NCBI GenBank assembly: GCA_046496605.1
Contig: JAWOGV010000209.1
Location: 1 to 27,125 of the forward strand
From: Acidimicrobiia bacterium
Lineage (GTDB): Bacteria > Actinomycetota > Acidimicrobiia > Spongiisociales > UBA5794
Direction of reading: 5' to 3'
DNA: 27,125 bases
Shown here: positions 12,591 to 19,805 of the stretch, one piece after another
How positions within the stretch are numbered: position 1 is the first letter of the stretch
Layout: each line of letters begins with the position of its first letter
Notes under the pieces: model-generated
Databases searched by the model: none
The model's input: only the letters and a program-made list of their open reading frames with translations
Told to the model about the DNA's origin: nothing
Program-made: the position numbers and the translations under genes

Positions 12591-13613
12591 TCACGGAACG
12601 ACGAGGAGGCCCTCCGATTCGAGCGCGAGCTGCAGCGCCCCTTCCTCCCCCGGCCTCACCGACAGGGTGAGGACACCACCGCCGCCGTACGGCGCATGAC
12701 GCATCTGGATATCGCGAATATCGACCCCGGATGCCTCGAAGGCATGCCCGACCTTTGCGAGCTCACCGGGGCGGTCCGCAAGCGCAACGCGAACGTGGGC
12801 AACGGGCGATCCCAATGCGCGGCGCGTGTCACGCGCCGTGGTCAACATGGTGAGGAGGGAGTCGTCCCTGCTCACGATGGCGGCCTCGATCGCCGAGAGA
12901 CGCTCGCGCAGCGCCCCGATGGCGTGGAGAACCGCTTCGTCGTTCGTCTTGAGGATCTCGACCCACCCGAGCGGCTCGGACGCCCCGACCCTCGTCAGAT
13001 CTCGGAAGCTCCCTGCGGCGAGATCGAGGGACGCGTCGTCCGCTGCTGCGGTCGCGAGGAGGGCGCTCGCAACGACCTGGGGGAGGTGGCTGATGAGGGC
13101 GACGGCACGATCGTGCTGAGCTGCTCCCATGAGGATCGGTCTGGCACCGAGGCCCTCGACGACCTCGAGCACCACCGCGCCGGCATCCTCTGGCGCTCCA
13201 TCCACGACGACCCACGAGGCACCGCTGAACAGCGCGGGACTCGCTGCCTCGGGCCCCGACGTCTCGCGGCCCGCCATCGGGTGCGTTCCGACGAAGCGGG
13301 GCAGGTGCCCCGACACCGCCACGACAGCTTCCTTGACGCCCGCGACGTCCATGACCACGGCGTCCGTCGCCAGGGAGGCCACGATCTCGATCGTCGCCTT
13401 TGGTGGTGCTGCAACGACGACGAGGTCCGCGCCATCGATCGCCGAGGCGATCGAGTCGTCATGAGAGTCGATGAGGCCGAGCTGGATCGATCGAGCCGCG
13501 ATGTCAGGGTCGGCATCGTGACCGACGACGTGCCACCCCATCGCACGGAGTCCAGCGGCGATCGATCCGCCGATGAGGCCGACGCCGATGACCGCTGCTC
13601 TCCTCGTCGCCAA
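12591..13613 (-). CDS. tyrA: Prephenate/arogenate dehydrogenase with C-terminal ACT domain
   Basis: VIGVGLIGGSIA, DVAGVK, FVGTHPMAGRE.SG, HDRAVALISHLPQ, AAGSFRDLTRV, and an ACT domain (ADRPGELAKVG). TTG start 7 nt after GAGGAG. The longer 584-aa ORF is a frame extension. Confidence 0.93.
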   Translation of the reverse strand: MATRRAAVIGVGLIGGSIAAGLRAMGWHVVGHDADPDIAARSIQLGLIDSHDDSIASAIDGADLVVVAAPPKATIEIVASLATDAVVMDVAGVKEAVVAVSGHLPRFVGTHPMAGRETSGPEAASPALFSGASWVVVDGAPEDAGAVVLEVVEGLGARPILMGAAQHDRAVALISHLPQVVASALLATAAADDASLDLAAGSFRDLTRVGASEPLGWVEILKTNDEAVLHAIGALRERLSAIEAAIVSRDDSLLTMLTTARDTRRALGSPVAHVRVALADRPGELAKVGHAFEASGVDIRDIQMRHAPYGGGGVLTLSVRPGEEGALQLALESEGLLVVP

Positions 13614-13839
13614 CGAAACGCTCCTCGTGTGTCGCGTAGGGGTCAGGCGGGAGGCTAGGTGTGACCGGACAACAGGTGCGATTCCGGGACCTCGCCGACA
13701 GCCTCGAATCCCTCCACTTCGTGCAAACCATTGCCGACGAACGAACTTGGTGGCGATAATGGCTGCCCACCGCCTCCCCACGATGCGGGCAGGCGCAGGG
13801 CGATCGTCATCGAACGAGGACGCGAGCGCGGAGGACGCG

Positions 13840-14337
13840 ATGCCCACGGATGAACCTCGGATCCGCGCAATTGGAGCGAAGGCGCCAATCCGGGTTCTGG
13901 CCGTCGCTGCGGTCATGCTGAGCGTCATTACCGGGTGCGGTTCGCCGAGCGGAACCACCTCGTCCACGCAGGACAGCACGACGACGACGACAACTGCCGC
14001 ACCCGCGACATCACCACTGATGGGATCCTGGGAACGTACCGGAGGAAACTTCTCGGTCCTGCAGGGGATGATCGTGGAGGTCGACGAGGCGGCTTCCGAG
14101 GGGACGATCACCAAGGTCCCAAGGAACCCCTTCCAGTTCAAGATCGGTGATGTCAAGTGGGGCTCCATCACGGCGGTATCCGGAGGGCGGTTCCGGATCT
14201 TCGACCTCAGCCGCGAGTCCGGCACAGGGACGGCCTCAAAGGTCACCGGCGTCATCACCGTGGTTGACGGGGGGGAGACGCTCGAGATTCGCTTCTCGTC
14301 CACGGGAACCATCCAGATCTGGACACGCGTTCCGTAG
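13840..14337 (+). CDS. Putative lipoprotein, Thr-rich linker plus beta-rich (lipocalin-like) domain
   Basis: GGAGG 5 nt before ATG 13840. Lipobox VITG-C, then STTTTTTAAP, and a GSWERT...WTRVP pattern typical of small beta-barrels. Confidence 0.75.
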   Translation: MPTDEPRIRAIGAKAPIRVLAVAAVMLSVITGCGSPSGTTSSTQDSTTTTTTAAPATSPLMGSWERTGGNFSVLQGMIVEVDEAASEGTITKVPRNPFQFKIGDVKWGSITAVSGGRFRIFDLSRESGTGTASKVTGVITVVDGGETLEIRFSSTGTIQIWTRVP

Positions 14338-14443
14338 GCACGCACCCAGGGCTCCGTTACGAGTCCTCACCGCATCACCCGGTGTTGTCGTCGGTCTCGC
14401 CGGCCCTGAGCTTGCCCACGGAGTTCCTCCTACCCTCGGGCAT

Positions 14444-15379
14444 ATGAAGCGGGTCTTCGTCACCGGTGCCGCGAGTTGGACGGGTGGCCAGCTGGTCAGG
14501 GCGCTTGCCGCTCGACGGGATGTCGAGGTGTTCGCTGTCGACGACGAAGCGCCACGTGTGGCGTTCGACGCCGAGTTCAAGTTGCTGGACCTCGACCGGC
14601 TCGCACTCGCCCGGTACGTCCTCGAGATCGAACCCGACGTGGTCGTCCATCTGCAGTCGGTCCACCGCAGGGCCGAGGAGGGCCACACAACCGGAGCCGA
14701 GGATCGGATCATCGGTGCCTTGGCGTTGTTCGGGGCGATCGAACGGGTCCAGTCCGTCTCCTCCGTGATCGTCAAGTCTGATACGGCCATCTACGGATCG
14801 AATCCCAGGAACCCCTCCGTCGTCGATGAATCGACACGCCCAAGGGGCCGCTCGAGCCGATTCCAGAGGGACCTCGCCGAGATGGAGCGTTTCGTGGCAG
14901 GACTCTCCGACCGCCTCCCCGACGTCGTGTTCACGACGCTGCGCTTCGCACCGATCTTCGGTCCCCGAGTCGCGAACCCGATCAGTCGCTACCTCACCCT
15001 GCCGGTCGTGCCCACGCTCCTGGGCTTCGATCCCCGCCTCCAGTTCACGGATGAACGAGACGCCGTCGCCGCCATCGAGTATTCGCTCGACCATCCGGTG
15101 TCGGGCACGTTCAACGTCGCGGGTGACGGTCAGATGTATCTCTCGCGCGTACTCCGCCTCGGAAGGCGAGCTCCCCAGCCGCTGCCGGGCCGCGTGTTCG
15201 ATACCGCGCTGCGGACCCTCCGCAGAACCGGGCTGGTCATCCCTGACCACCTCTCGGGCCTCCTGAAGCACGGCCGCGTCGCAGACACGACCCTGATGCG
15301 TACCGAGCTCGGCTTCGCTCCCCGCTACACATGTCGCATGACGGTGATGAACACCTATCACCCGGAGATCTCACCATGA
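14444..15379 (+). CDS. NAD-dependent epimerase/dehydratase-fold (atypical SDR), Rv0501/GalE2-like
   Basis: VFVTGAASWTG, AIYGSNPRNPSVVDE, TLRFAPIFGP, LGFDPRLQF, GTFNVAGDG. Leaderless start with TACCCT (14431-14436) 7 nt before ATG. Confidence 0.88.
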   Translation: MKRVFVTGAASWTGGQLVRALAARRDVEVFAVDDEAPRVAFDAEFKLLDLDRLALARYVLEIEPDVVVHLQSVHRRAEEGHTTGAEDRIIGALALFGAIERVQSVSSVIVKSDTAIYGSNPRNPSVVDESTRPRGRSSRFQRDLAEMERFVAGLSDRLPDVVFTTLRFAPIFGPRVANPISRYLTLPVVPTLLGFDPRLQFTDERDAVAAIEYSLDHPVSGTFNVAGDGQMYLSRVLRLGRRAPQPLPGRVFDTALRTLRRTGLVIPDHLSGLLKHGRVADTTLMRTELGFAPRYTCRMTVMNTYHPEISP

Positions 15380-16593
15380 CCGGGGACTTCCGATCGATGA
15401 CGAAGGCAGAGCTCCTCCAACACGCCCGAGCGATCGATCTGAGGGGGAGGTCCTCGATGACGAAGGCCGAGCTCCTCGCCGCCCTGGAGGAGACAGCGAC
15501 AGCCGGGAAGGCGGCTGACCGGGCCGGACACAAGGCGATCGAGATCCCTGAGGGACTCGGATCCCTTTCGCTACCGGGTATCTCAGCAGAGGACCGGGCC
15601 GAGGCCCGCCAGCGCCGATCGGCGCTGAACGACCGGCTCCGCGCCTTCGTGGACCCTGCGACGCACTGCCCGTGGCGGAGCATCGAGGGACACCCCTGCG
15701 GGCTGCCCGTGTCAGTCGGTGCATCCCGGTGCGGTCTCCACGGTGATGGCTCCATTGCCGATCGGGCCTTTCCCCTGACCGGCATCCTCGGGTTCAGCGC
15801 ATGGCCCGCTCTCTGGCGCCACCTCATGCTCGCAACGTACGACGTCGACGCCTTCGGTCTCGATCCCGTCGTGGCCGAGATGGTGTGGCATGTGCTCAAT
15901 GGCCTCTACTACGACTACTTCCGCGTGGAGGTCGACGGGATCGAGAACATCCCGCTGGATGGACCCGCAGTGCTCGTCGCGAACCACGGCGGCGCGGCGC
16001 TCCCCTACGACGCTGCGATGCTGTCGCTCGCCGTCATGAACGAGGCCGAGGTCCCGCGACGCGTGCGCGTCATCGGGACGGAGATCTTCAACATGCTGCC
16101 CTTCGTCTCGCACCTGTACCGGAAGGTCGGTGCAGCCCACGCAACCCGCGAGGATGCTGCCGAGATCCTCAGGCGCGGGCACCTCCTCGGTGTCTTCCCC
16201 GAAGGAGAGCGCGGGTTCATGAAGCCGGTGTGGGAGGCCTATCGCGTCGGGCGCCTCGGACGTGGTGGGTTCGTCGAGATCGCCCAGGACGCCGGCGCGG
16301 TGATCGTCCCCGTAGCGATCATCGGCTCCGAGGAGGTGCATCCAGCCGTGATGACCTCGAAGCTCCTCGCCCGCCTCGTGAGGGTCGTCTTCCCGGAGCA
16401 GCGGGTCGAGGAGATCGCCATCGCACTCAATCCGATCCCCCTCCCGATCCGGTGGAGGATCCGGTTCCTGGAACCCGTACCCGCGGATCGGCCACTCGAT
16501 GCGCTCGACCTCCTCCAACGATCCGAGGACATCCGTCGCTCCATCCAGGAAGCCCTCGACGACATGCTCGCCTCACGTCGCACATCGTTCTGA
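15376..16593 (+). CDS. Lysophospholipid acyltransferase family protein (Rv0502-like) with N-terminal Rho_N-like module and CCCH zinc finger
   Basis: DVDAFGLDP, YFRVEVDGIENIP.DGPAVLVANHGG, LGVFPEGERG, LGRGGFV, IVPVAIIGSEE, PIPLPIRWRIRF. N-terminal MTKAELLQHARAIDLRGRSSMTKAELLAAL and C-x9-C-x10-C-x2-H. ATGA overlap with the SDR gene. Confidence 0.9.
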   Translation: MTGDFRSMTKAELLQHARAIDLRGRSSMTKAELLAALEETATAGKAADRAGHKAIEIPEGLGSLSLPGISAEDRAEARQRRSALNDRLRAFVDPATHCPWRSIEGHPCGLPVSVGASRCGLHGDGSIADRAFPLTGILGFSAWPALWRHLMLATYDVDAFGLDPVVAEMVWHVLNGLYYDYFRVEVDGIENIPLDGPAVLVANHGGAALPYDAAMLSLAVMNEAEVPRRVRVIGTEIFNMLPFVSHLYRKVGAAHATREDAAEILRRGHLLGVFPEGERGFMKPVWEAYRVGRLGRGGFVEIAQDAGAVIVPVAIIGSEEVHPAVMTSKLLARLVRVVFPEQRVEEIAIALNPIPLPIRWRIRFLEPVPADRPLDALDLLQRSEDIRRSIQEALDDMLASRRTSF

Positions 16594-16615
16594 GGTCGTC
16601 TGCTGTCATTGTGCG

Positions 16616-16647
16616 TGCTTGCAATTGCAAGCAATATGCTGTATGAT
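16616..16647 (+). promoter_or_regulatory. Sigma70-type promoter TTGCAA-N17-TATGAT overlapped by an 18-bp perfect palindrome (putative operator)
   Basis: TGCTTGCAATTGCAAGCA at 16616-16633 is its own reverse complement. The -35 is at 16619-16624 and the -10 at 16642-16647, in an AT-rich patch. Confidence 0.75.
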
Positions 16648-16657
16648 GCAATCGACT

Positions 16658-17005
16658 ATGAAGACACCGCAGCTTGGGGACGTCGGTTCGTTCATCCGTG
16701 AACAGCGGGAACGCAGCGCACTGTCGATCCGCAAACTCGCTGATCTGACCGGGGTCTCGAACCCCTATCTGAGCCAGATCGAGCGTGGGGTCCGAACACC
16801 ATCGGCGGAGATCCTCAGATCCATCGGCGAGGCCCTGTCCATCCGGACGGAGACCCTCTACGAGCGGGCAGGACTCCTCGACAGGGACGAACCTCCGGGA
16901 GTGACCGAGGCAATCGAAGCAGACCCCGGGCTGACGGCGAACCAGAAGAGAGCCCTGATGGAGATCTATACGACCTTCATCGCACACGACAAGGAGGAGC
17001 AATGA
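16658..17005 (+). CDS. XRE-family HTH transcriptional regulator (Rv0474-like)
   Basis: GSFIREQRERSALSIRKLADLTGVSNPYLSQIERGVRTPSAEILRSI...LYERAGLL...AIEADPGLTANQKRALMEIY. ATG 16643 and 16646 are alternative starts but overlap the -10. Confidence 0.92.
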   Translation: MKTPQLGDVGSFIREQRERSALSIRKLADLTGVSNPYLSQIERGVRTPSAEILRSIGEALSIRTETLYERAGLLDRDEPPGVTEAIEADPGLTANQKRALMEIYTTFIAHDKEEQ

Positions 17006-17691
17006 ACCTCGAAACCTCGAAGGAAACGGCCACGAAGGCCGTGAAGACGGTCACAGGGACCGTCGCCGATACCACGACGACGGCAACGACCAAGGCGAAG
17101 GAATACACCGAGGTCGCAGCCGGTAAATTCTTCGACTACTCGACAGCGGCCACCGATTCGGTCAAGGAGGCAACCGACACCGCGACGTCTCGCGCCAGCG
17201 AGTACGGCACCGCTGCTGTCGCCACGATCGCCGATACCGCAACGGAGATCATCGACCAGGGAAGGGTCCTCGCACACAAGGGCTTCGTCCGCGTGAAGGA
17301 GTTCCAGGTCGGAGACAAGAAGGTCGGCGAACGCGCCCAGGCGACCGTCGACACCGTCACTGAGAAGATCGACGTTGACCAGATCCAGGATCAGGTCGCG
17401 AAGCTCCGTCACCAGATGGAGGGTGTCCTGAGCACATGGAAGGACACGTTCCGTCCCTCGACGGCGCCCGCAACGGCTCCCAAGCCCGCCGCAGTGAAGC
17501 CCGCTGCCAAGAAGCCGGCAGTCAAGAAGCCGGCAGCGAAGGCGACAACGGCCACCAAGCCTGCCGTCAAGAAGCCGGCCGCAAAGAAGGCGACACCCAA
17601 GGCGTCGACCACGGCACGGAAACCTGCCGCAAAGAAGGCGACACCAAAGGCGACGACCACAGAGGCGTCGACCACCAAGACGACCGCATAG
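17002..17691 (+). CDS. HbhA/phasin-like protein with 11-mer amphipathic repeats and a Lys-Ala-Pro-rich tail
   Basis: AAGGAGG SD and ATGA overlap with the XRE gene. Tandem 11-mers at aa 14-79, a coiled segment, and a tail with KKPAAK repeats. Same gene order as Rv0474-hbhA. Confidence 0.8.
   Translation: MNLETSKETATKAVKTVTGTVADTTTTATTKAKEYTEVAAGKFFDYSTAATDSVKEATDTATSRASEYGTAAVATIADTATEIIDQGRVLAHKGFVRVKEFQVGDKKVGERAQATVDTVTEKIDVDQIQDQVAKLRHQMEGVLSTWKDTFRPSTAPATAPKPAAVKPAAKKPAVKKPAAKATTATKPAVKKPAAKKATPKASTTARKPAAKKATPKATTTEASTTKTTA
17458..17688 (+). repeat. Coding low-complexity repeats (KPAAKK / KKPAVKK / KKATPKA)
   Basis: GTCAAGAAGCCGGC occurs twice. GCCGCAAAGAAGGCGACACC.AAGGCG.CGACCAC occurs twice, 48 nt apart. 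Confidence 0.85.
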
Positions 17692-17710
17692 TCGACTTGG
17701 GTCACAGACG

Positions 17711-17744
17711 GACGTGGGGCCCGCACCCGGTGCGGGCCTTCGTC
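17711..17744 (+). terminator. Intrinsic terminator-like hairpin after the HbhA-like gene (may also serve the convergent DUF4332 gene)
   Basis: GGCCCGCAC-ccg-GTGCGGGCC, extended by GACG/CGTC and followed by ATTT. Confidence 0.65.
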
Positions 17745-17756
17745 ATTTCGAAACGA

Positions 17757-18161
17757 TCAGGAGACCACCGTCGAGTCCAGGACGACGGCCGTGTCCACCC
17801 AGCCCTGCACCATCTCGATCGTGGGGAGGCGCTGCACGGTGCGCCGCTTCGTGTTCACCTGGGTCATCAGCGTCATGAGGTTCGCGGCGTTCCGACGTCG
17901 GAGCGCCTTGACGGTATCGACCCCGGCCGAACCCAGGAGGTCCGCGTACTCCGAACCGATCCCATTGATCCGCATGAGGTCGGCCTGATGCGCCCAGCGA
18001 AGCAGGTCAACGGTGGCGATGCCGGTTCTCTCCGAGAGGTCCGATCGCTGCGTGCGGGTGCCGGCCTGCTGGAGCAGCGCCTCCGTCGTTCGGACGCGAG
18101 CCTTGCGAAGCTTGGTTGCGTCCCGATGATCGATCGCACGAATGGCCGCAATCGACGCCAT
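17757..18161 (-). CDS. DUF4332 domain protein (helix-hairpin-helix)
   Basis: KLRKARVRTTEALL, LLRWAHQADLMRINGIGSEYADLLGSAGVDTVKALRRRNAANL, RLPTIEMVQGWV. 134 aa, with AAGGAG upstream. Confidence 0.9.
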   Translation of the reverse strand: MASIAAIRAIDHRDATKLRKARVRTTEALLQQAGTRTQRSDLSERTGIATVDLLRWAHQADLMRINGIGSEYADLLGSAGVDTVKALRRRNAANLMTLMTQVNTKRRTVQRLPTIEMVQGWVDTAVVLDSTVVS

Positions 18162-18235
18162 CGGCTCCACTCCTTCTGACCAGCGCTCAGTGAACGCCGA
18201 GACTACTCATGTGCATCGGACCGTTGCATATCGAG

Positions 18236-18820
18236 TCACCTGCGTGGGGACGGAAGGTCCTCGACACGTTCGATGATTCGAGGTGCGAGGTGATCCACGT
18301 GGACTTCCTCGACCGATCGGGCATGCGTCGCGACGACGTCATGGACGTCGATCGCCCCCTCCTGACCGAGGAACACATCCCACACGGATCGTGCGAGCAC
18401 AACGGGCCAGCCGCGGGTGTATCGGTACTTCGGCACTGTGGCGTCAGCCTCGGTCGCCCTCGCCCGGTCGATGAGCGCGCCGACGATCCCCGCATCCACC
18501 CCCGGTTGATCACCACGCGCGAGGATGCAGTGCGTCACCGAGCGATCCCGAGAGGCCATATCCAGTACGGCCCGAATCGGCGAGGCCGAACCCTCCGCCC
18601 ACGAGGGGTCCACCACGACCGAGACGTCGGACAGGCTCGACTCGCGTTCGACGTCCTCGTCGTCGGCTCCGAGCACCACGACGACCTCGTCGACCGGCCA
18701 GGACATCGCGTCGGCGACCACCAGGTCGACCAGCTTCGTGCCACGCACGTCGGCGAGATACTTCGACGATGGGAATCCCTCACTGCGATCGGCAGCGAGG
18801 ATGGCGGCGACGATGGACAT
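18236..18820 (-). CDS. MocA/MobA-like NTP transferase family protein with a degenerate signature
   Basis: AAILAADRSEGFPSSK (compare LAAGxSxRxGxxK), EVVVVLGA, SASPIRA, ARGDQPGV, RGWPVVL. TAGCCT -10 lies 8 nt before the ATG. Confidence 0.8.
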   Translation of the reverse strand: MSIVAAILAADRSEGFPSSKYLADVRGTKLVDLVVADAMSWPVDEVVVVLGADDEDVERESSLSDVSVVVDPSWAEGSASPIRAVLDMASRDRSVTHCILARGDQPGVDAGIVGALIDRARATEADATVPKYRYTRGWPVVLARSVWDVFLGQEGAIDVHDVVATHARSVEEVHVDHLAPRIIERVEDLPSPRR

Positions 18821-18835: not shown

Positions 18836-19297
18836 TCACCGCAGGTTGCGGATCGCCCTGACGAGCATGCCTTGCACGTGGGACAGCCACGCAACAGCTG
18901 CCAGGGCGGGGTCCGTCGCAATGCGGTCCTCCCAGGAGGCGCCTTCTTCGAACGCACCGGCGCGTGCAGCGAGGACGAGCCTCGCCTCGTTGAGGACGCG
19001 CACCAACGAGAGGGCCTCGTGGCGTGTCAACTCCGGGGCTCCGGCCGCGACCTCCACGAGGACACGACCATCGACACGGCGGGCGATCCCCCGTTCACCG
19101 GATACCAGTCGTTCGAATGCCTGGGATGCGTCAGCATCGTCGGTGTACGCATCGCGATGCAGGACGTCGAATGCCGGGTCGGATCCATCGTCCCCGACGG
19201 ATGCGAGGAGTTCGGGAATGCTGGCGAGCACGCCACGGTCCGTGACCGAGAGCTCCACGACGATACGGCCCGAGCGCACGGAGAACACGCCCCTCAC
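18836..19297 (-). CDS. DUF2017 family protein
   Basis: [25 protein letters not shown] and [15 protein letters not shown]. Lies directly after clpS, as is usual in Actinobacteria. GTGA overlap at 19294-19297; 19315 is an alternative start. Confidence 0.75.
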
Positions 19298-19578
19298 TGC
19301 TCCATCGTTGCCCACAGCCCGTAGGCATGGAGTCGCTGGACATTGAGCTCGGCTTCGTCCCTCGTCCCGTTGAACACAACGGCCCTGCCCTCGTTGTGGA
19401 CCTGGAGCATGAGACGTCTGGCCTTGCGCGCGGAGAAGCCGAACAGCTCCTGGAAGACGAAGACGACGTAATCCATGAGGTTCACGGGGTCATCCCAGAC
19501 GATCACGACCCACGGGGACGCGTGGTCGACGGTCGTGTCGGACTCCGGCAGGAGGACAGGAGCCTCGATGGTCGTCAA
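19294..19578 (-). CDS. clpS: ATP-dependent Clp protease adaptor ClpS
   Basis: [25 protein letters not shown]...[35 protein letters not shown] start overlapping the upstream TGA (TTGA). Confidence 0.96.
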
Positions 19579-19805
19579 TGGCGATCAGATGCGTCCTCGC
19601 GATCGATGCCGCGAGTCCTTCGTTGTTCGTTGATCCACACCTCGAAGTCATCCCTCGAGACTCGCCACTCCCTCCCGAACTTCACGGCGGGAAGCTCGCC
19701 GGAGCGGAGAACGGAGGTGACGACGAACGTCGAGACATCCATGTATTCGCAGATGTCCGCAACGCTCAGCCACGGCTTGTCGATGTCGACCCGTACGTCA
19801 TCCAT
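19575..19805 (-). CDS. Excisionase-type helix-turn-helix DNA-binding protein
   Basis: [14 protein letters not shown]...[22 protein letters not shown]. Leaderless start, with TACGCT (19813-19818) 7 nt before ATG. Confidence 0.88.

What the first reader, a model, noticed from the sequence alone, without database searches (positions are those of the whole stretch)
14444..17691. Candidate nucleic-acid-tethered lipid-body module: atypical SDR, Rho_N/Zn-finger acyltransferase, XRE regulator and HbhA/phasin-like protein
Seen: four co-directional genes in two ATGA-coupled pairs, with a palindromic operator between the pairs, a terminator after them, and a convergent HhH (DUF4332) gene. Established: the SDR + acyltransferase pair resembles mycobacterial Rv0501-Rv0502 and the XRE + PAKK-tail pair resembles Rv0474-hbhA, which are separate loci in M. 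tuberculosis. HbhA and Rhodococcus TadA associate with lipid inclusions, and Pseudomonas PhaF ties PHA granules to the nucleoid through an AAKP tail. Here both the acyltransferase and the coat-like protein carry putative nucleic-acid-binding appendages. Inference: a module that makes neutral lipid and anchors or segregates the inclusions on the nucleoid. I know no description of this combination.
Basis: partly seen in the sequence, partly recalled or inferred. Interest (0 to 1): 0.85.

Follow-up and report, generated by a model that had tools for sequence, protein, structure and literature searches.

The report
Lipid-droplet gene pairs joined in Acidimicrobiia
Two ancient actinobacterial gene pairs sit side by side in one Acidimicrobiia order: an enzyme-like pair of unknown function and the known regulator/coat pair that ties fat droplets to DNA. 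This is a useful clue to the unknown pair, but the droplet-to-DNA idea is already published.

Summary
Four co-directional genes lie in two ATGA-overlapping pairs, with an 18-bp perfect palindrome over a promoter between the pairs. A strong hairpin and a convergent DUF4332 gene follow.

Pair 2 (XRE + K/A/P-tailed protein) is the positional orthologue of Rhodococcus mldsr-mlds, which is Rv0474-hbhA in M. tuberculosis. Its lipid-droplet-to-DNA tether was published in 2017.

Pair 1 is the Rv0501-Rv0502 orthologue. It couples a catalytically degenerate SDR to an LPLAT acyltransferase with intact motifs. Co-folding supports a heterodimer (0.75 and 0.67; controls 0.00). Published droplet proteomes list orthologues of all four proteins.

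The tight juxtaposition is conserved across one Acidimicrobiia order (21 of 21 loci examined that carry the acyltransferase) and was not found elsewhere. It is not one regulatory unit. The operator is unique in the genome. RNA-library contigs cover only XRE-HbhA. Some relatives keep pair 2 without pair 1.

The coat protein's tail is swapped for HhH or Rho_N modules in syntenic orthologues. The acyltransferase carries Rho_N plus a CCCH knuckle.

Verdict: a new variant of a known system, of moderate interest. First-stage notes flagged similar pairs in other genomes (e1-4896708, e1-5220657).

The parts
14444..15379 (+). Atypical (probably non-catalytic) extended-SDR, orthologue of Rv0501/GalE2; predicted partner subunit of the acyltransferase
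   Evidence: PF01370 E 2e-15. The central Gly of TGxxGxxG and the YxxxK motif are missing in this protein and across the orthologue family. It lies directly upstream of AT in 38 of 40 loci across the phylum; two same-class genomes have the order AT>SDR. Co-fold with AT scores ipSAE 0.75, best control 0.00.
15376..16593 (+). LPLAT/PlsC-fold acyltransferase, orthologue of Rv0502. Rho_N/SAP-like module at residues ~6-41 (15391-15498). CCCH knuckle C98-C108-C119-H122 (15667-15741). Catalytic core at residues 183-315 (15922-16320).
   Evidence: PF01553 E 2e-19. N203 H204 G206 D212, P275 E276 G277 and R293-F299 are invariant in 41 orthologues. AF2 model pLDDT 89.9. Best Foldseek hit is PlsC 5kym, E 4e-8. 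DAGAT PF03982 gives weak hits in 27 of 41 orthologues, Rho_N in 16, DUF5763 in 8. The CCCH residues are invariant or near-invariant in the order.
16616..16633 (.). Perfect 18-bp palindrome, the likely operator of the XRE regulator
   Evidence: Unique in the genome. GCTTGCA...TGCAAGC palindromes lie upstream of XRE orthologues in Mycobacterium-like, Streptomyces-like and other lineages.
16619..16647 (+). Promoter-like TTGCAA-17-TATGAT, probably giving a leaderless or very short-leader XRE-HbhA mRNA
   Evidence: Only promoter hit in 14000-18400. RNA-library contigs begin at 16662-16676 in four runs.
16658..17005 (+). XRE-family regulator, orthologue of MLDSR (RHA1_ro02105) / Rv0474 / MSMEG_0918
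   Evidence: HTH_3 E 2e-12. Orthologues at 46-65% identity, mostly single-copy, in 114 of 301 phylum genomes.
17002..17691 (+). HbhA/TadA/MLDS-type coat protein: T/A-rich 11-mer repeats, a conserved helix (IDVDQIQDQVAKLR..W..FRP), and a K/A/P histone-H1-like tail from about residue 153 (17458-17688)
   Evidence: Positional orthologue downstream of XRE. Profile-profile comparison of the order's set with the Actinomycetes HbhA-like set, tails removed: prob 85-86%, E 5e-6. Weak HC2 hit on the tail. Periodicity at 11 and 22 residues.
17711..17744 (.). Hairpin between the convergent genes, terminator-like but with a weak U-tract
   Evidence: One RNA contig ends at 17710.
17757..18170 (-). DUF4332/HhH protein, a conserved convergent neighbour of the HbhA-like gene in this order
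   Evidence: PF14229 E 5e-34. Adjacent or near in most loci of the order, including genomes that lack SDR-AT. No solved relative by sequence.

Best explanation
The locus juxtaposes two ancient, independently transcribed actinobacterial two-gene units. In studied Actinomycetes, both encode proteins found on lipid droplets.

Unit 2 is the mldsr-mlds (Rv0474-hbhA) operon. The XRE protein binds the palindrome over its own -35 and autoregulates a bicistronic, probably leaderless mRNA. The coat protein sits on triacylglycerol or wax-ester droplets, which the genome's WS/DGAT encoded elsewhere is expected to make. It tethers them non-specifically to DNA through its lysine-rich tail.

Unit 1 is the Rv0501-Rv0502 pair. 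A catalytically degenerate SDR forms a heterodimer with an active LPLAT acyltransferase that has weak DGAT2/MGAT-like features. This acyltransferase is one of seven in the genome, so it is accessory rather than the housekeeping PlsC. In this order it carries a CCCH knuckle and an added Rho_N/SAP-like module. These may place it at the same droplet-nucleoid interface.

Shown: anatomy, orthology, synteny, motif conservation and transcript extent.

Inferred: droplet localisation (by orthology and published proteomes), DNA binding, the heterodimer (model only) and the substrate.
For: - Orthology and synteny.
- The HbhA homology chain. The sequences printed in the paper's supplement match Mycobacterium-like loci L026, L049 and L051.
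- The published MLDS/MLDSR mechanism: overlapping XRE-mlds genes, a palindromic box, PAKKA-tail DNA binding (PMC5504291).
- Rv0501, Rv0502 and Rv0475 are labelled 'Rop-Rjos-Msmeg' in Table S4 of PMC10699116. That paper defines a 70-protein core shared by all three proteomes.
- The operator half-site is conserved phylum-wide.
- RNA-library contigs of 917 and 1028 nt span 16662-17608 and 16668-17710. The SDR-AT and DUF4332 flanks are essentially uncovered in the same four runs.
- WS/DGAT is present and PhaC_N was not found.
- By family, the distributions of AT, XRE and WS/DGAT largely coincide.
- The SDR-AT co-fold scores 0.75 here and 0.67 for a Streptomyces-like pair. The best control is 0.00 in both. 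That mark was reached by 55 of 80 solved complexes and 3 of 110 mismatched pairs. No solved homologous complex exists.
- Tail swapping among 66 homologues: 54 K/A/P, 3 HhH, 4 Rho_N, in unchanged synteny.
- In L070, the AT N-terminal module and the HbhA-like C-terminal module are 49% identical over 39 residues.
Against: - No experiment exists for this organism.
- Droplet proteomes contain contaminants, as the paper itself says.
- In the window's genus the coat protein has lost the N-terminal LYAAVGAPVV-type motif shared with HbhA.
- Rho_N in the window protein is below the Pfam cut-off. Its structural matches to Rho and SAP are not significant (E >= 2).
- The acyltransferase has H-x7-D instead of the canonical H-x4-D.
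- DAGAT hits are sub-threshold and absent for the window protein itself.
- The two units are separable. They lie 8-50 kb or megabases apart outside this order.
- RNA evidence comes from assembled contigs of about 97-98% identical strains, in runs chosen because they hold this gene. It therefore shows presence better than absence.
Confidence: 0.6

Rival explanations
1. The adjacency is a historical accident of synteny. The SDR-AT complex works in membrane phospholipid or glycolipid acylation and has no functional tie to the HbhA-like coat protein or to droplets.
For: - Separate promoter and a unique operator.
- RNA contigs cover only XRE-HbhA.
- Same-order genomes of families f3 and f9, 98-100% complete, keep XRE-HbhA-DUF4332 but lack SDR and AT orthologues.
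- Elsewhere the pairs are loosely linked or far apart.
- The best structural relatives are the phospholipid enzymes PlsC, GPAT and PatA.
Against: - Both SDR and AT orthologues recur in three independent droplet proteomes.
- The tight adjacency is kept across an entire order, including through insertions.
- The same module type sits on AT and on some HbhA-like orthologues.
- AT, XRE and WS/DGAT co-distribute by family.
Confidence: 0.25
2. In this genus the HbhA-like protein is no longer a droplet coat. It is instead a nucleoid-associated or LEA-like stress protein, and its tail alone drives chromatin binding.
For: - The N-terminal hydrophobic motif shared by HbhA and the order's other orthologues is replaced by polar T/A-rich 11-mer repeats.
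- The tail resembles histone H1/HC2.
Against: - 11-mer amphipathic repeats are themselves typical of droplet-binding proteins (established knowledge of perilipins and apolipoproteins).
- The conserved C-terminal helix and the synteny are retained.
- WS/DGAT is present.
Confidence: 0.15
3. The acyltransferase's Rho_N-like module and CCCH knuckle mediate protein-protein contacts or regulation, such as oligomerisation or zinc or redox sensing. They do not bind nucleic acid.
For: - The module is nearly charge-neutral by inspection of residues 1-45: about 7 basic against 6 acidic.
- In Rho, the N-terminal helix bundle is not the main RNA-binding surface (established knowledge).
- The Foldseek matches are insignificant.
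Against: - The same module replaces proven or typical DNA-binding tails (K/A/P, HhH) on HbhA-like orthologues in identical synteny.
- The FANC_SAP family also hits 10 of 41 orthologues.
- One lineage (G181) carries a K/A/T-rich tail at the AT N-terminus instead.
Confidence: 0.3

Closest known systems
mldsr-mlds operon of Rhodococcus jostii RHA1 (ro02105-ro02104; MLDS = TadA of R. opacus), Zhang et al. 2017, PMC5504291
   Same: An XRE regulator whose gene slightly overlaps a coat-protein gene. A palindromic operator lies at the promoter. The coat protein has a lysine/alanine/proline tail that binds DNA non-specifically. The regulator is also droplet-associated.
   Different: In the window's genus the coat protein has T/A-rich 11-mer repeats instead of the HbhA-type N-terminus. 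The operator here is a perfect TGCTTGCAATTGCAAGCA; the published box is GNT(T/A)GCTNNTGCTANC. Here the operon directly follows the SDR-acyltransferase pair and faces a DUF4332 gene.
Rv0474-hbhA (Rv0475) of Mycobacterium tuberculosis
   Same: Positional orthologues. XRE identity is about 50% to Mycobacterium-like genomes, and the operator half-site GCTTGCA occurs upstream of a mycobacterial orthologue.
   Different: HbhA is also a surface adhesin in the pathogen. Rv0474 is reported as copper-responsive through a motif that M. smegmatis lacks (PMC10884836). The pair lies about 30 kb upstream of Rv0501-Rv0502 in Mycobacterium-like genomes.
Rv0501 (galE2)-Rv0502 of M. tuberculosis
   Same: Same gene order and tight coupling. 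The SDR shows the same atypical motifs, and the acyltransferase the same core motifs. Rv0502 is one of four PlsC homologues conserved in M. smegmatis and M. leprae (PMC10593935).
   Different: The mycobacterial acyltransferase lacks both the CCCH knuckle and the Rho_N module. No function has been shown for either protein.
Nucleoid-tethering phasins of PHA granules (Pseudomonas PhaF, Ralstonia PhaM); from established knowledge
   Same: A coat protein of a storage inclusion carries a histone-like AAKP/PAKK tail that binds DNA. One homologue here hits Phasin_2.
   Different: The stored polymer differs. No PhaC_N was found in this genome or four relatives. The window protein gives no significant phasin family hit.
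PlsC (T. maritima, 5kym) and the DGAT2/MGAT branch of LPLATs
   Same: The fold (Foldseek E 4e-8, TM 0.64 on the target), the FPEG and proline-containing motifs, and an RxGF...VP...G(S/E)E block resembling the DGAT2 signature.
   Different: H-x7-D (H-x6-D in other lineages) replaces H-x4-D. A conserved GDY.VD.FG.D segment precedes the core and forms the predicted SDR interface. There are about 145 extra N-terminal residues.

Membership tests
MLDSR/MLDS (Rv0474/HbhA, TadA) operon | XRE regulator gene immediately upstream of, and coupled to, the coat-protein gene | tested here: met
   ATGA overlap at 17002-17005. The same arrangement is seen in orthologous loci.
MLDSR/MLDS (Rv0474/HbhA, TadA) operon | Palindromic operator at the operon promoter | tested here: met
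   An 18-bp perfect palindrome lies over the -35. The half-site is conserved upstream of orthologues across the phylum. Binding itself was not tested.
MLDSR/MLDS (Rv0474/HbhA, TadA) operon | Coat protein homologous to HbhA/TadA outside the tail | tested here: inconclusive
   The order-level profile against the Actinomycetes HbhA-like profile gives prob 85-86%, E 5e-6. However, the window protein itself lacks the N-terminal motif that carries much of that alignment. A first run anchored on it gave only 22%. It joins the family through the conserved C-terminal helix and through synteny.
MLDSR/MLDS (Rv0474/HbhA, TadA) operon | Lysine/alanine/proline-rich C-terminal tail | tested here: met
   The tail runs from about residue 153 and holds 18 Lys in 79 residues. 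HC2 hit E 6e-4.
MLDSR/MLDS (Rv0474/HbhA, TadA) operon | Localisation on lipid droplets and DNA binding | not testable with these tools
   Only indirect evidence: WS/DGAT is in the genome, and orthologues are in droplet proteomes.
Rv0501-Rv0502 pair | Adjacent, co-directional SDR then acyltransferase, with sequence orthology | tested here: met
   SDR precedes AT in 38 of 40 loci across the phylum; two same-class genomes have AT before SDR. AT E-values are 1e-37 to 1e-59 with one best hit per genome. L026 matches the Rv0501 and Rv0502 text in the paper's supplement.
Classical/extended SDR (PF01370) | TGxxGxxG cofactor motif and catalytic YxxxK | tested here: not met
   The window protein has TGAASWTG and FQRDL. 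The orthologue family has Y/F/H-x-K/R-D instead. The Pfam domain itself matches, so the fold is SDR but the chemistry is doubtful.
LPLAT / PlsC-type acyltransferase (PF01553) | Domain match above cut-off and the PlsC fold | tested here: met
   70 bits against a cut-off of 23. Foldseek hit to 5kym, E 4e-8.
LPLAT / PlsC-type acyltransferase (PF01553) | Canonical H-x4-D catalytic dyad spacing | tested here: not met
   Invariant H204 and D212 give H-x7-D here and H-x6-D in other lineages. Whether D212 is the catalytic partner is not known.
DGAT2/MGAT (PF03982) | Family match over the cut-off | tested here: inconclusive
   Sub-threshold hits in 27 of 41 orthologues, best E 9e-6, and none for the window protein. 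A structurally nearest Atlas cluster has DAGAT in 74% of its members.
Rho_N / SAP-like HeH module (PF07498) | Family match over the cut-off | tested here: inconclusive
   The window protein scores 19.6 bits against a cut-off of 24.9. 16 of 41 orthologues hit, best E 4.6e-7. The model superposes on Rho and FAN1 SAP at 1.2-2.6 A over about 42 residues, but with E >= 2.
PHA phasin (PhaF-type) | Phasin domain and a PHA synthase in the genome | tested here: not met
   The window protein gives no phasin hit. PhaC_N was not found in G000 or four relatives.

The most novel reading that the evidence does not exclude
In Actinomycetota, the Rv0501/Rv0502-type complex (a regulatory pseudo-SDR plus a DGAT2-like acyltransferase) is a dedicated lipid-droplet enzyme. 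Its own nucleic-acid-binding modules (CCCH knuckle, Rho_N, or a K/A-rich tail, depending on lineage) hold it at the nucleoid, next to the HbhA/MLDS tether. Droplets would then be built or remodelled on the chromosome. This Acidimicrobiia order has fused the two units into one locus and uses the same module on both proteins.
Probability: 0.2. Interest if true: 0.75.

Novelty: new variant of a known kind. Interest (0 to 1): 0.5.

Why it matters
Rv0501 and Rv0502 have no known function. They are conserved from Acidimicrobiia to M. leprae and recur in lipid-droplet proteomes.

This work yields testable hypotheses for that pair, from three lines of evidence:
- the order-wide fusion of their locus with the droplet-DNA tether operon;
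- the predicted SDR-acyltransferase heterodimer;
- the parallel nucleic-acid-type appendages on the acyltransferase and the coat protein.

It also extends the MLDSR/MLDS system and its operator half-site well beyond Corynebacteriales. The natural tail swaps (K/A/P, HhH, Rho_N) argue that DNA binding is the selected function of the tail, rather than heparin binding.

The central idea, droplets tethered to DNA, is not new.

Tried and rejected
- **PHA-granule reading.** Rejected. PhaC_N was not found in G000 or four relatives, whereas WS/DGAT is present.
- **Shared XRE regulon covering SDR-AT.** Rejected. The operator core is unique in the window and in the genome, and no palindrome lies upstream of the SDR gene.
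- **Recent duplication of the AT Rho_N module into the HbhA-like tail of L070.** Rejected. Protein identity is 49% but there is no DNA-level similarity.
- **First hhalign run, anchored on the window protein with over-trimmed sequences.** It gave prob 22%. It was redone with consensus match states.
- **Foldseek on the isolated N-terminal 140 residues.** No significant hit, and nothing for the CCCH knuckle.
- **The single genome-contig scan.** It was swamped by Streptomyces. It added only eight Acidimicrobiia loci and the organism names.
- **AT as the housekeeping PlsC.** Rejected. The genome has seven PF01553 genes, some scoring better, and relatives without this AT have six or seven.
- **NCBIfam.** It gave no specific family for any of the four proteins.

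Full report
**Source and habitat.** The window is a whole 27-kb contig (C372) of a 2.2-Mb, 86%-complete metagenome-assembled genome. Close homologues come from records named Acidimicrobiia or Acidimicrobiaceae bacterium. Near-identical DNA occurs in soil and sediment metagenomes from several studies.

**Anatomy.**
- The SDR gene (14444-15379) overlaps the acyltransferase gene (15376-16593) by ATGA.
- The XRE gene (16658-17005) overlaps the K/A/P-tailed gene (17002-17691) in the same way.
- In the 64-nt gap between the pairs lies a perfect 18-bp palindrome (16616-16633). It covers the -35 of the only promoter-like site found in 14000-18400.
- A strong hairpin (17711-17744) precedes a convergent DUF4332/HhH gene.

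**Pair 2 is the known droplet-DNA tether operon.**
- The XRE protein has orthologues at 46-65% identity, mostly single-copy, in 114 of 301 sampled genomes of the phylum.
- In Mycobacterium-like genomes the next gene is recognisably HbhA. In Streptomyces-like and many other lineages it is an HbhA-like protein with a lysine-rich tail.
- With tails removed, the profile of this order's proteins matches the profile of the Actinomycetes HbhA-like proteins at 85-86% probability, E 5e-6.
- In Rhodococcus jostii the same two overlapping genes are mldsr and mlds. MLDS is the major droplet protein and binds DNA through its PAKKA tail. MLDSR binds a palindromic box at the operon promoter (PMC5504291).
- The half-site GCTTGCA recurs as a palindrome upstream of XRE orthologues in distant lineages. 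This supports the operator reading.
- The site is unique in this genome, so it points to autoregulation only.

**Transcript evidence.**
- Four metatranscriptome runs from two studies hold contigs of about 97-98% identity that cover XRE-HbhA: 16662-17608 and 16668-17710 in the two longest.
- The same runs hold almost nothing over SDR-AT or DUF4332.
- This fits a separate bicistronic mRNA that starts at or just before the XRE start codon and ends at the hairpin.
- Caveats: these are assembled contigs, and the runs were picked because they hold this gene.

**Pair 1 is the Rv0501-Rv0502 pair.**
- The acyltransferase has one clear orthologue in 103 of 301 phylum genomes.
- The SDR gene lies next to it in all 40 loci examined. 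It is directly upstream in 38. Two same-class genomes (G096, G311) have the order AT then SDR.
- The SDR family lacks the central glycine of the cofactor motif and the YxxxK catalytic pair throughout. The 'GalE2' epimerase label is therefore doubtful.
- The acyltransferase keeps invariant LPLAT motifs (NH-G...D, FPEG, RxGRGGF, PIVP). It folds with high confidence (pLDDT 89.9) into a PlsC-like core.
- 27 of 41 orthologues give weak DGAT2/MGAT family hits.
- It is one of seven PF01553 genes in the genome, so it is accessory.
- Co-folding supports an SDR-acyltransferase heterodimer. Scores are 0.75, 0.74 and 0.75 here and 0.67 for a Streptomyces-like pair. The best control is 0.00 in both. That mark was reached by 55 of 80 solved complexes and 3 of 110 mismatched pairs.
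- The predicted interface uses the invariant GDY.VD.FG.D segment just before the core.
- No related complex has been solved.

**Published proteomics link both pairs to lipid droplets.**
- The supplement of PMC10699116 lists Rv0501, Rv0502 and Rv0475 orthologues as found in the R. opacus, R. jostii and M. smegmatis droplet proteomes. The Rv0474 orthologue appears in the M. smegmatis set.
- The paper defines a 70-protein core shared by all three proteomes and warns of contaminants.
- This genome and its relatives carry WS/DGAT, and PhaC was not found in them.
- By family, AT, XRE and WS/DGAT are present or absent together across the phylum sample, with one family as an exception. Related genomes are not independent observations.

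**How far the juxtaposition reaches.**
- SDR>AT>XRE>HbhA-like, mostly with DUF4332 convergent, occurs in all 11 AT-bearing genomes sampled from the window's order. It also occurs in 10 further Acidimicrobiia contigs.
- Outside the order it was not found in those searched.
- In 28 genomes where both genes lie on one contig, XRE is 8-50 kb upstream of SDR-AT on the same strand. In Mycobacterium-like genomes the gap is about 30 kb.
- In Streptomyces-like and some other genomes the two are 0.5-3 Mb apart.
- Four same-order genomes of families f3 and f9 lack both SDR and AT orthologues with these queries. In the two whose XRE locus was examined (G066, G176), XRE-HbhA-DUF4332-MobA is retained.
- The adjacency is therefore old and stable in one clade, but the units are separable.

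**Appendages.**
- Among 66 homologues of the coat protein, 54 have K/A/P tails, 3 have an HhH tail and 4 have a Rho_N tail. The HhH and Rho_N variants sit in unchanged synteny.
- The acyltransferase carries a C-x9-C-x10-C-x2-H knuckle. It is invariant in the order and present in many orthologues across the phylum, where some hit DUF5763.
- The Rho_N-like module on the acyltransferase is confined to this order.
- In one contig (L070), the acyltransferase N-terminus and the coat protein C-terminus carry the same module at 49% identity.
- One lineage (G181) instead has a K/A/T-rich N-terminal extension on the acyltransferase, with coding-like GC3.
- These parallels are the best support for a shared target. 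They remain comparative inference. The window's Rho_N hit is sub-threshold, and the structural matches to Rho and SAP are not significant.

**Verdict.** The conceptual core is already known. What is new:
- the order-wide fusion of the two units;
- the phylum-wide atypical SDR-acyltransferase pairing with a predicted heterodimer;
- the conserved operator half-site;
- the tail and module swaps.

I rate it a new variant of a known kind, of moderate interest.

**Unpublished genomes.** G021, G067 and G107 enter only the tallies. No locus examined and no specific claim rests on them.

Noticed in passing
window 13573-14337 (+): An ORF upstream of and co-directional with the SDR gene encodes a likely lipoprotein, with a signal-like segment and a VITGCGS lipobox followed by a T-rich linker. 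Judging by the PDH-to-AT spacing, G007 has room for it but G003 and G009 do not.
   Followed up: no
L069:2840-5278 (-): In one Acidimicrobiia MAG, an 812-aa MprF-like gene (LPG_synthase_TM) is inserted between the acyltransferase and the XRE gene. This is another lipid-modifying gene in the same locus.
   Followed up: no
L151:4259-6497 (-), genome G117: A WS/DGAT gene is directly followed on the same strand by an XRE orthologue and a 118-aa protein. This arrangement was seen only in this one of the 11 family-f26 genomes.
   Followed up: partly
L044:8570-9169 (+), genome G181: The acyltransferase orthologue appears to have an N-terminal extension of about 200 residues. Its first roughly 60 residues are K/A/T-rich (GC3 0.92 against 0.97 in the core), recalling the HbhA tail.
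   Followed up: partly
L010 (G003) and L017 (G018): In G003 the HbhA-like gene reads in two frames, and DUF4332 is displaced by about 5 kb. In G018 the acyltransferase is split at about residue 231. These may be frameshifts, assembly errors or pseudogenes.
   Followed up: no
window 19575-19805 (-) and 19294-19578 (-): An excisionase-type HTH gene lies beside clpS. A similar small HTH lies 1.7-3.3 kb upstream of the SDR gene in several loci, among them Mycobacterium-like ones (7.6 kb in one further locus). From memory, this resembles the Rv0500A position. It hints at a wider ancestral synteny block.
   Followed up: partly
L061-L063, L066 and L048, L054, L055: In other Acidimicrobiia families the XRE orthologue is followed by glycosyltransferase-like genes; three look MshA-like. 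In family f23 it is followed by a FemAB/GNAT-like gene. In neither case is an HbhA-like gene next.
   Followed up: no
window 17456-17599: Metatranscriptome depth spikes about ten-fold over the K/A/P-repeat region. The cause is short contigs from other organisms' PAKK-type repeats. This is a mapping artefact, not expression.
   Followed up: partly
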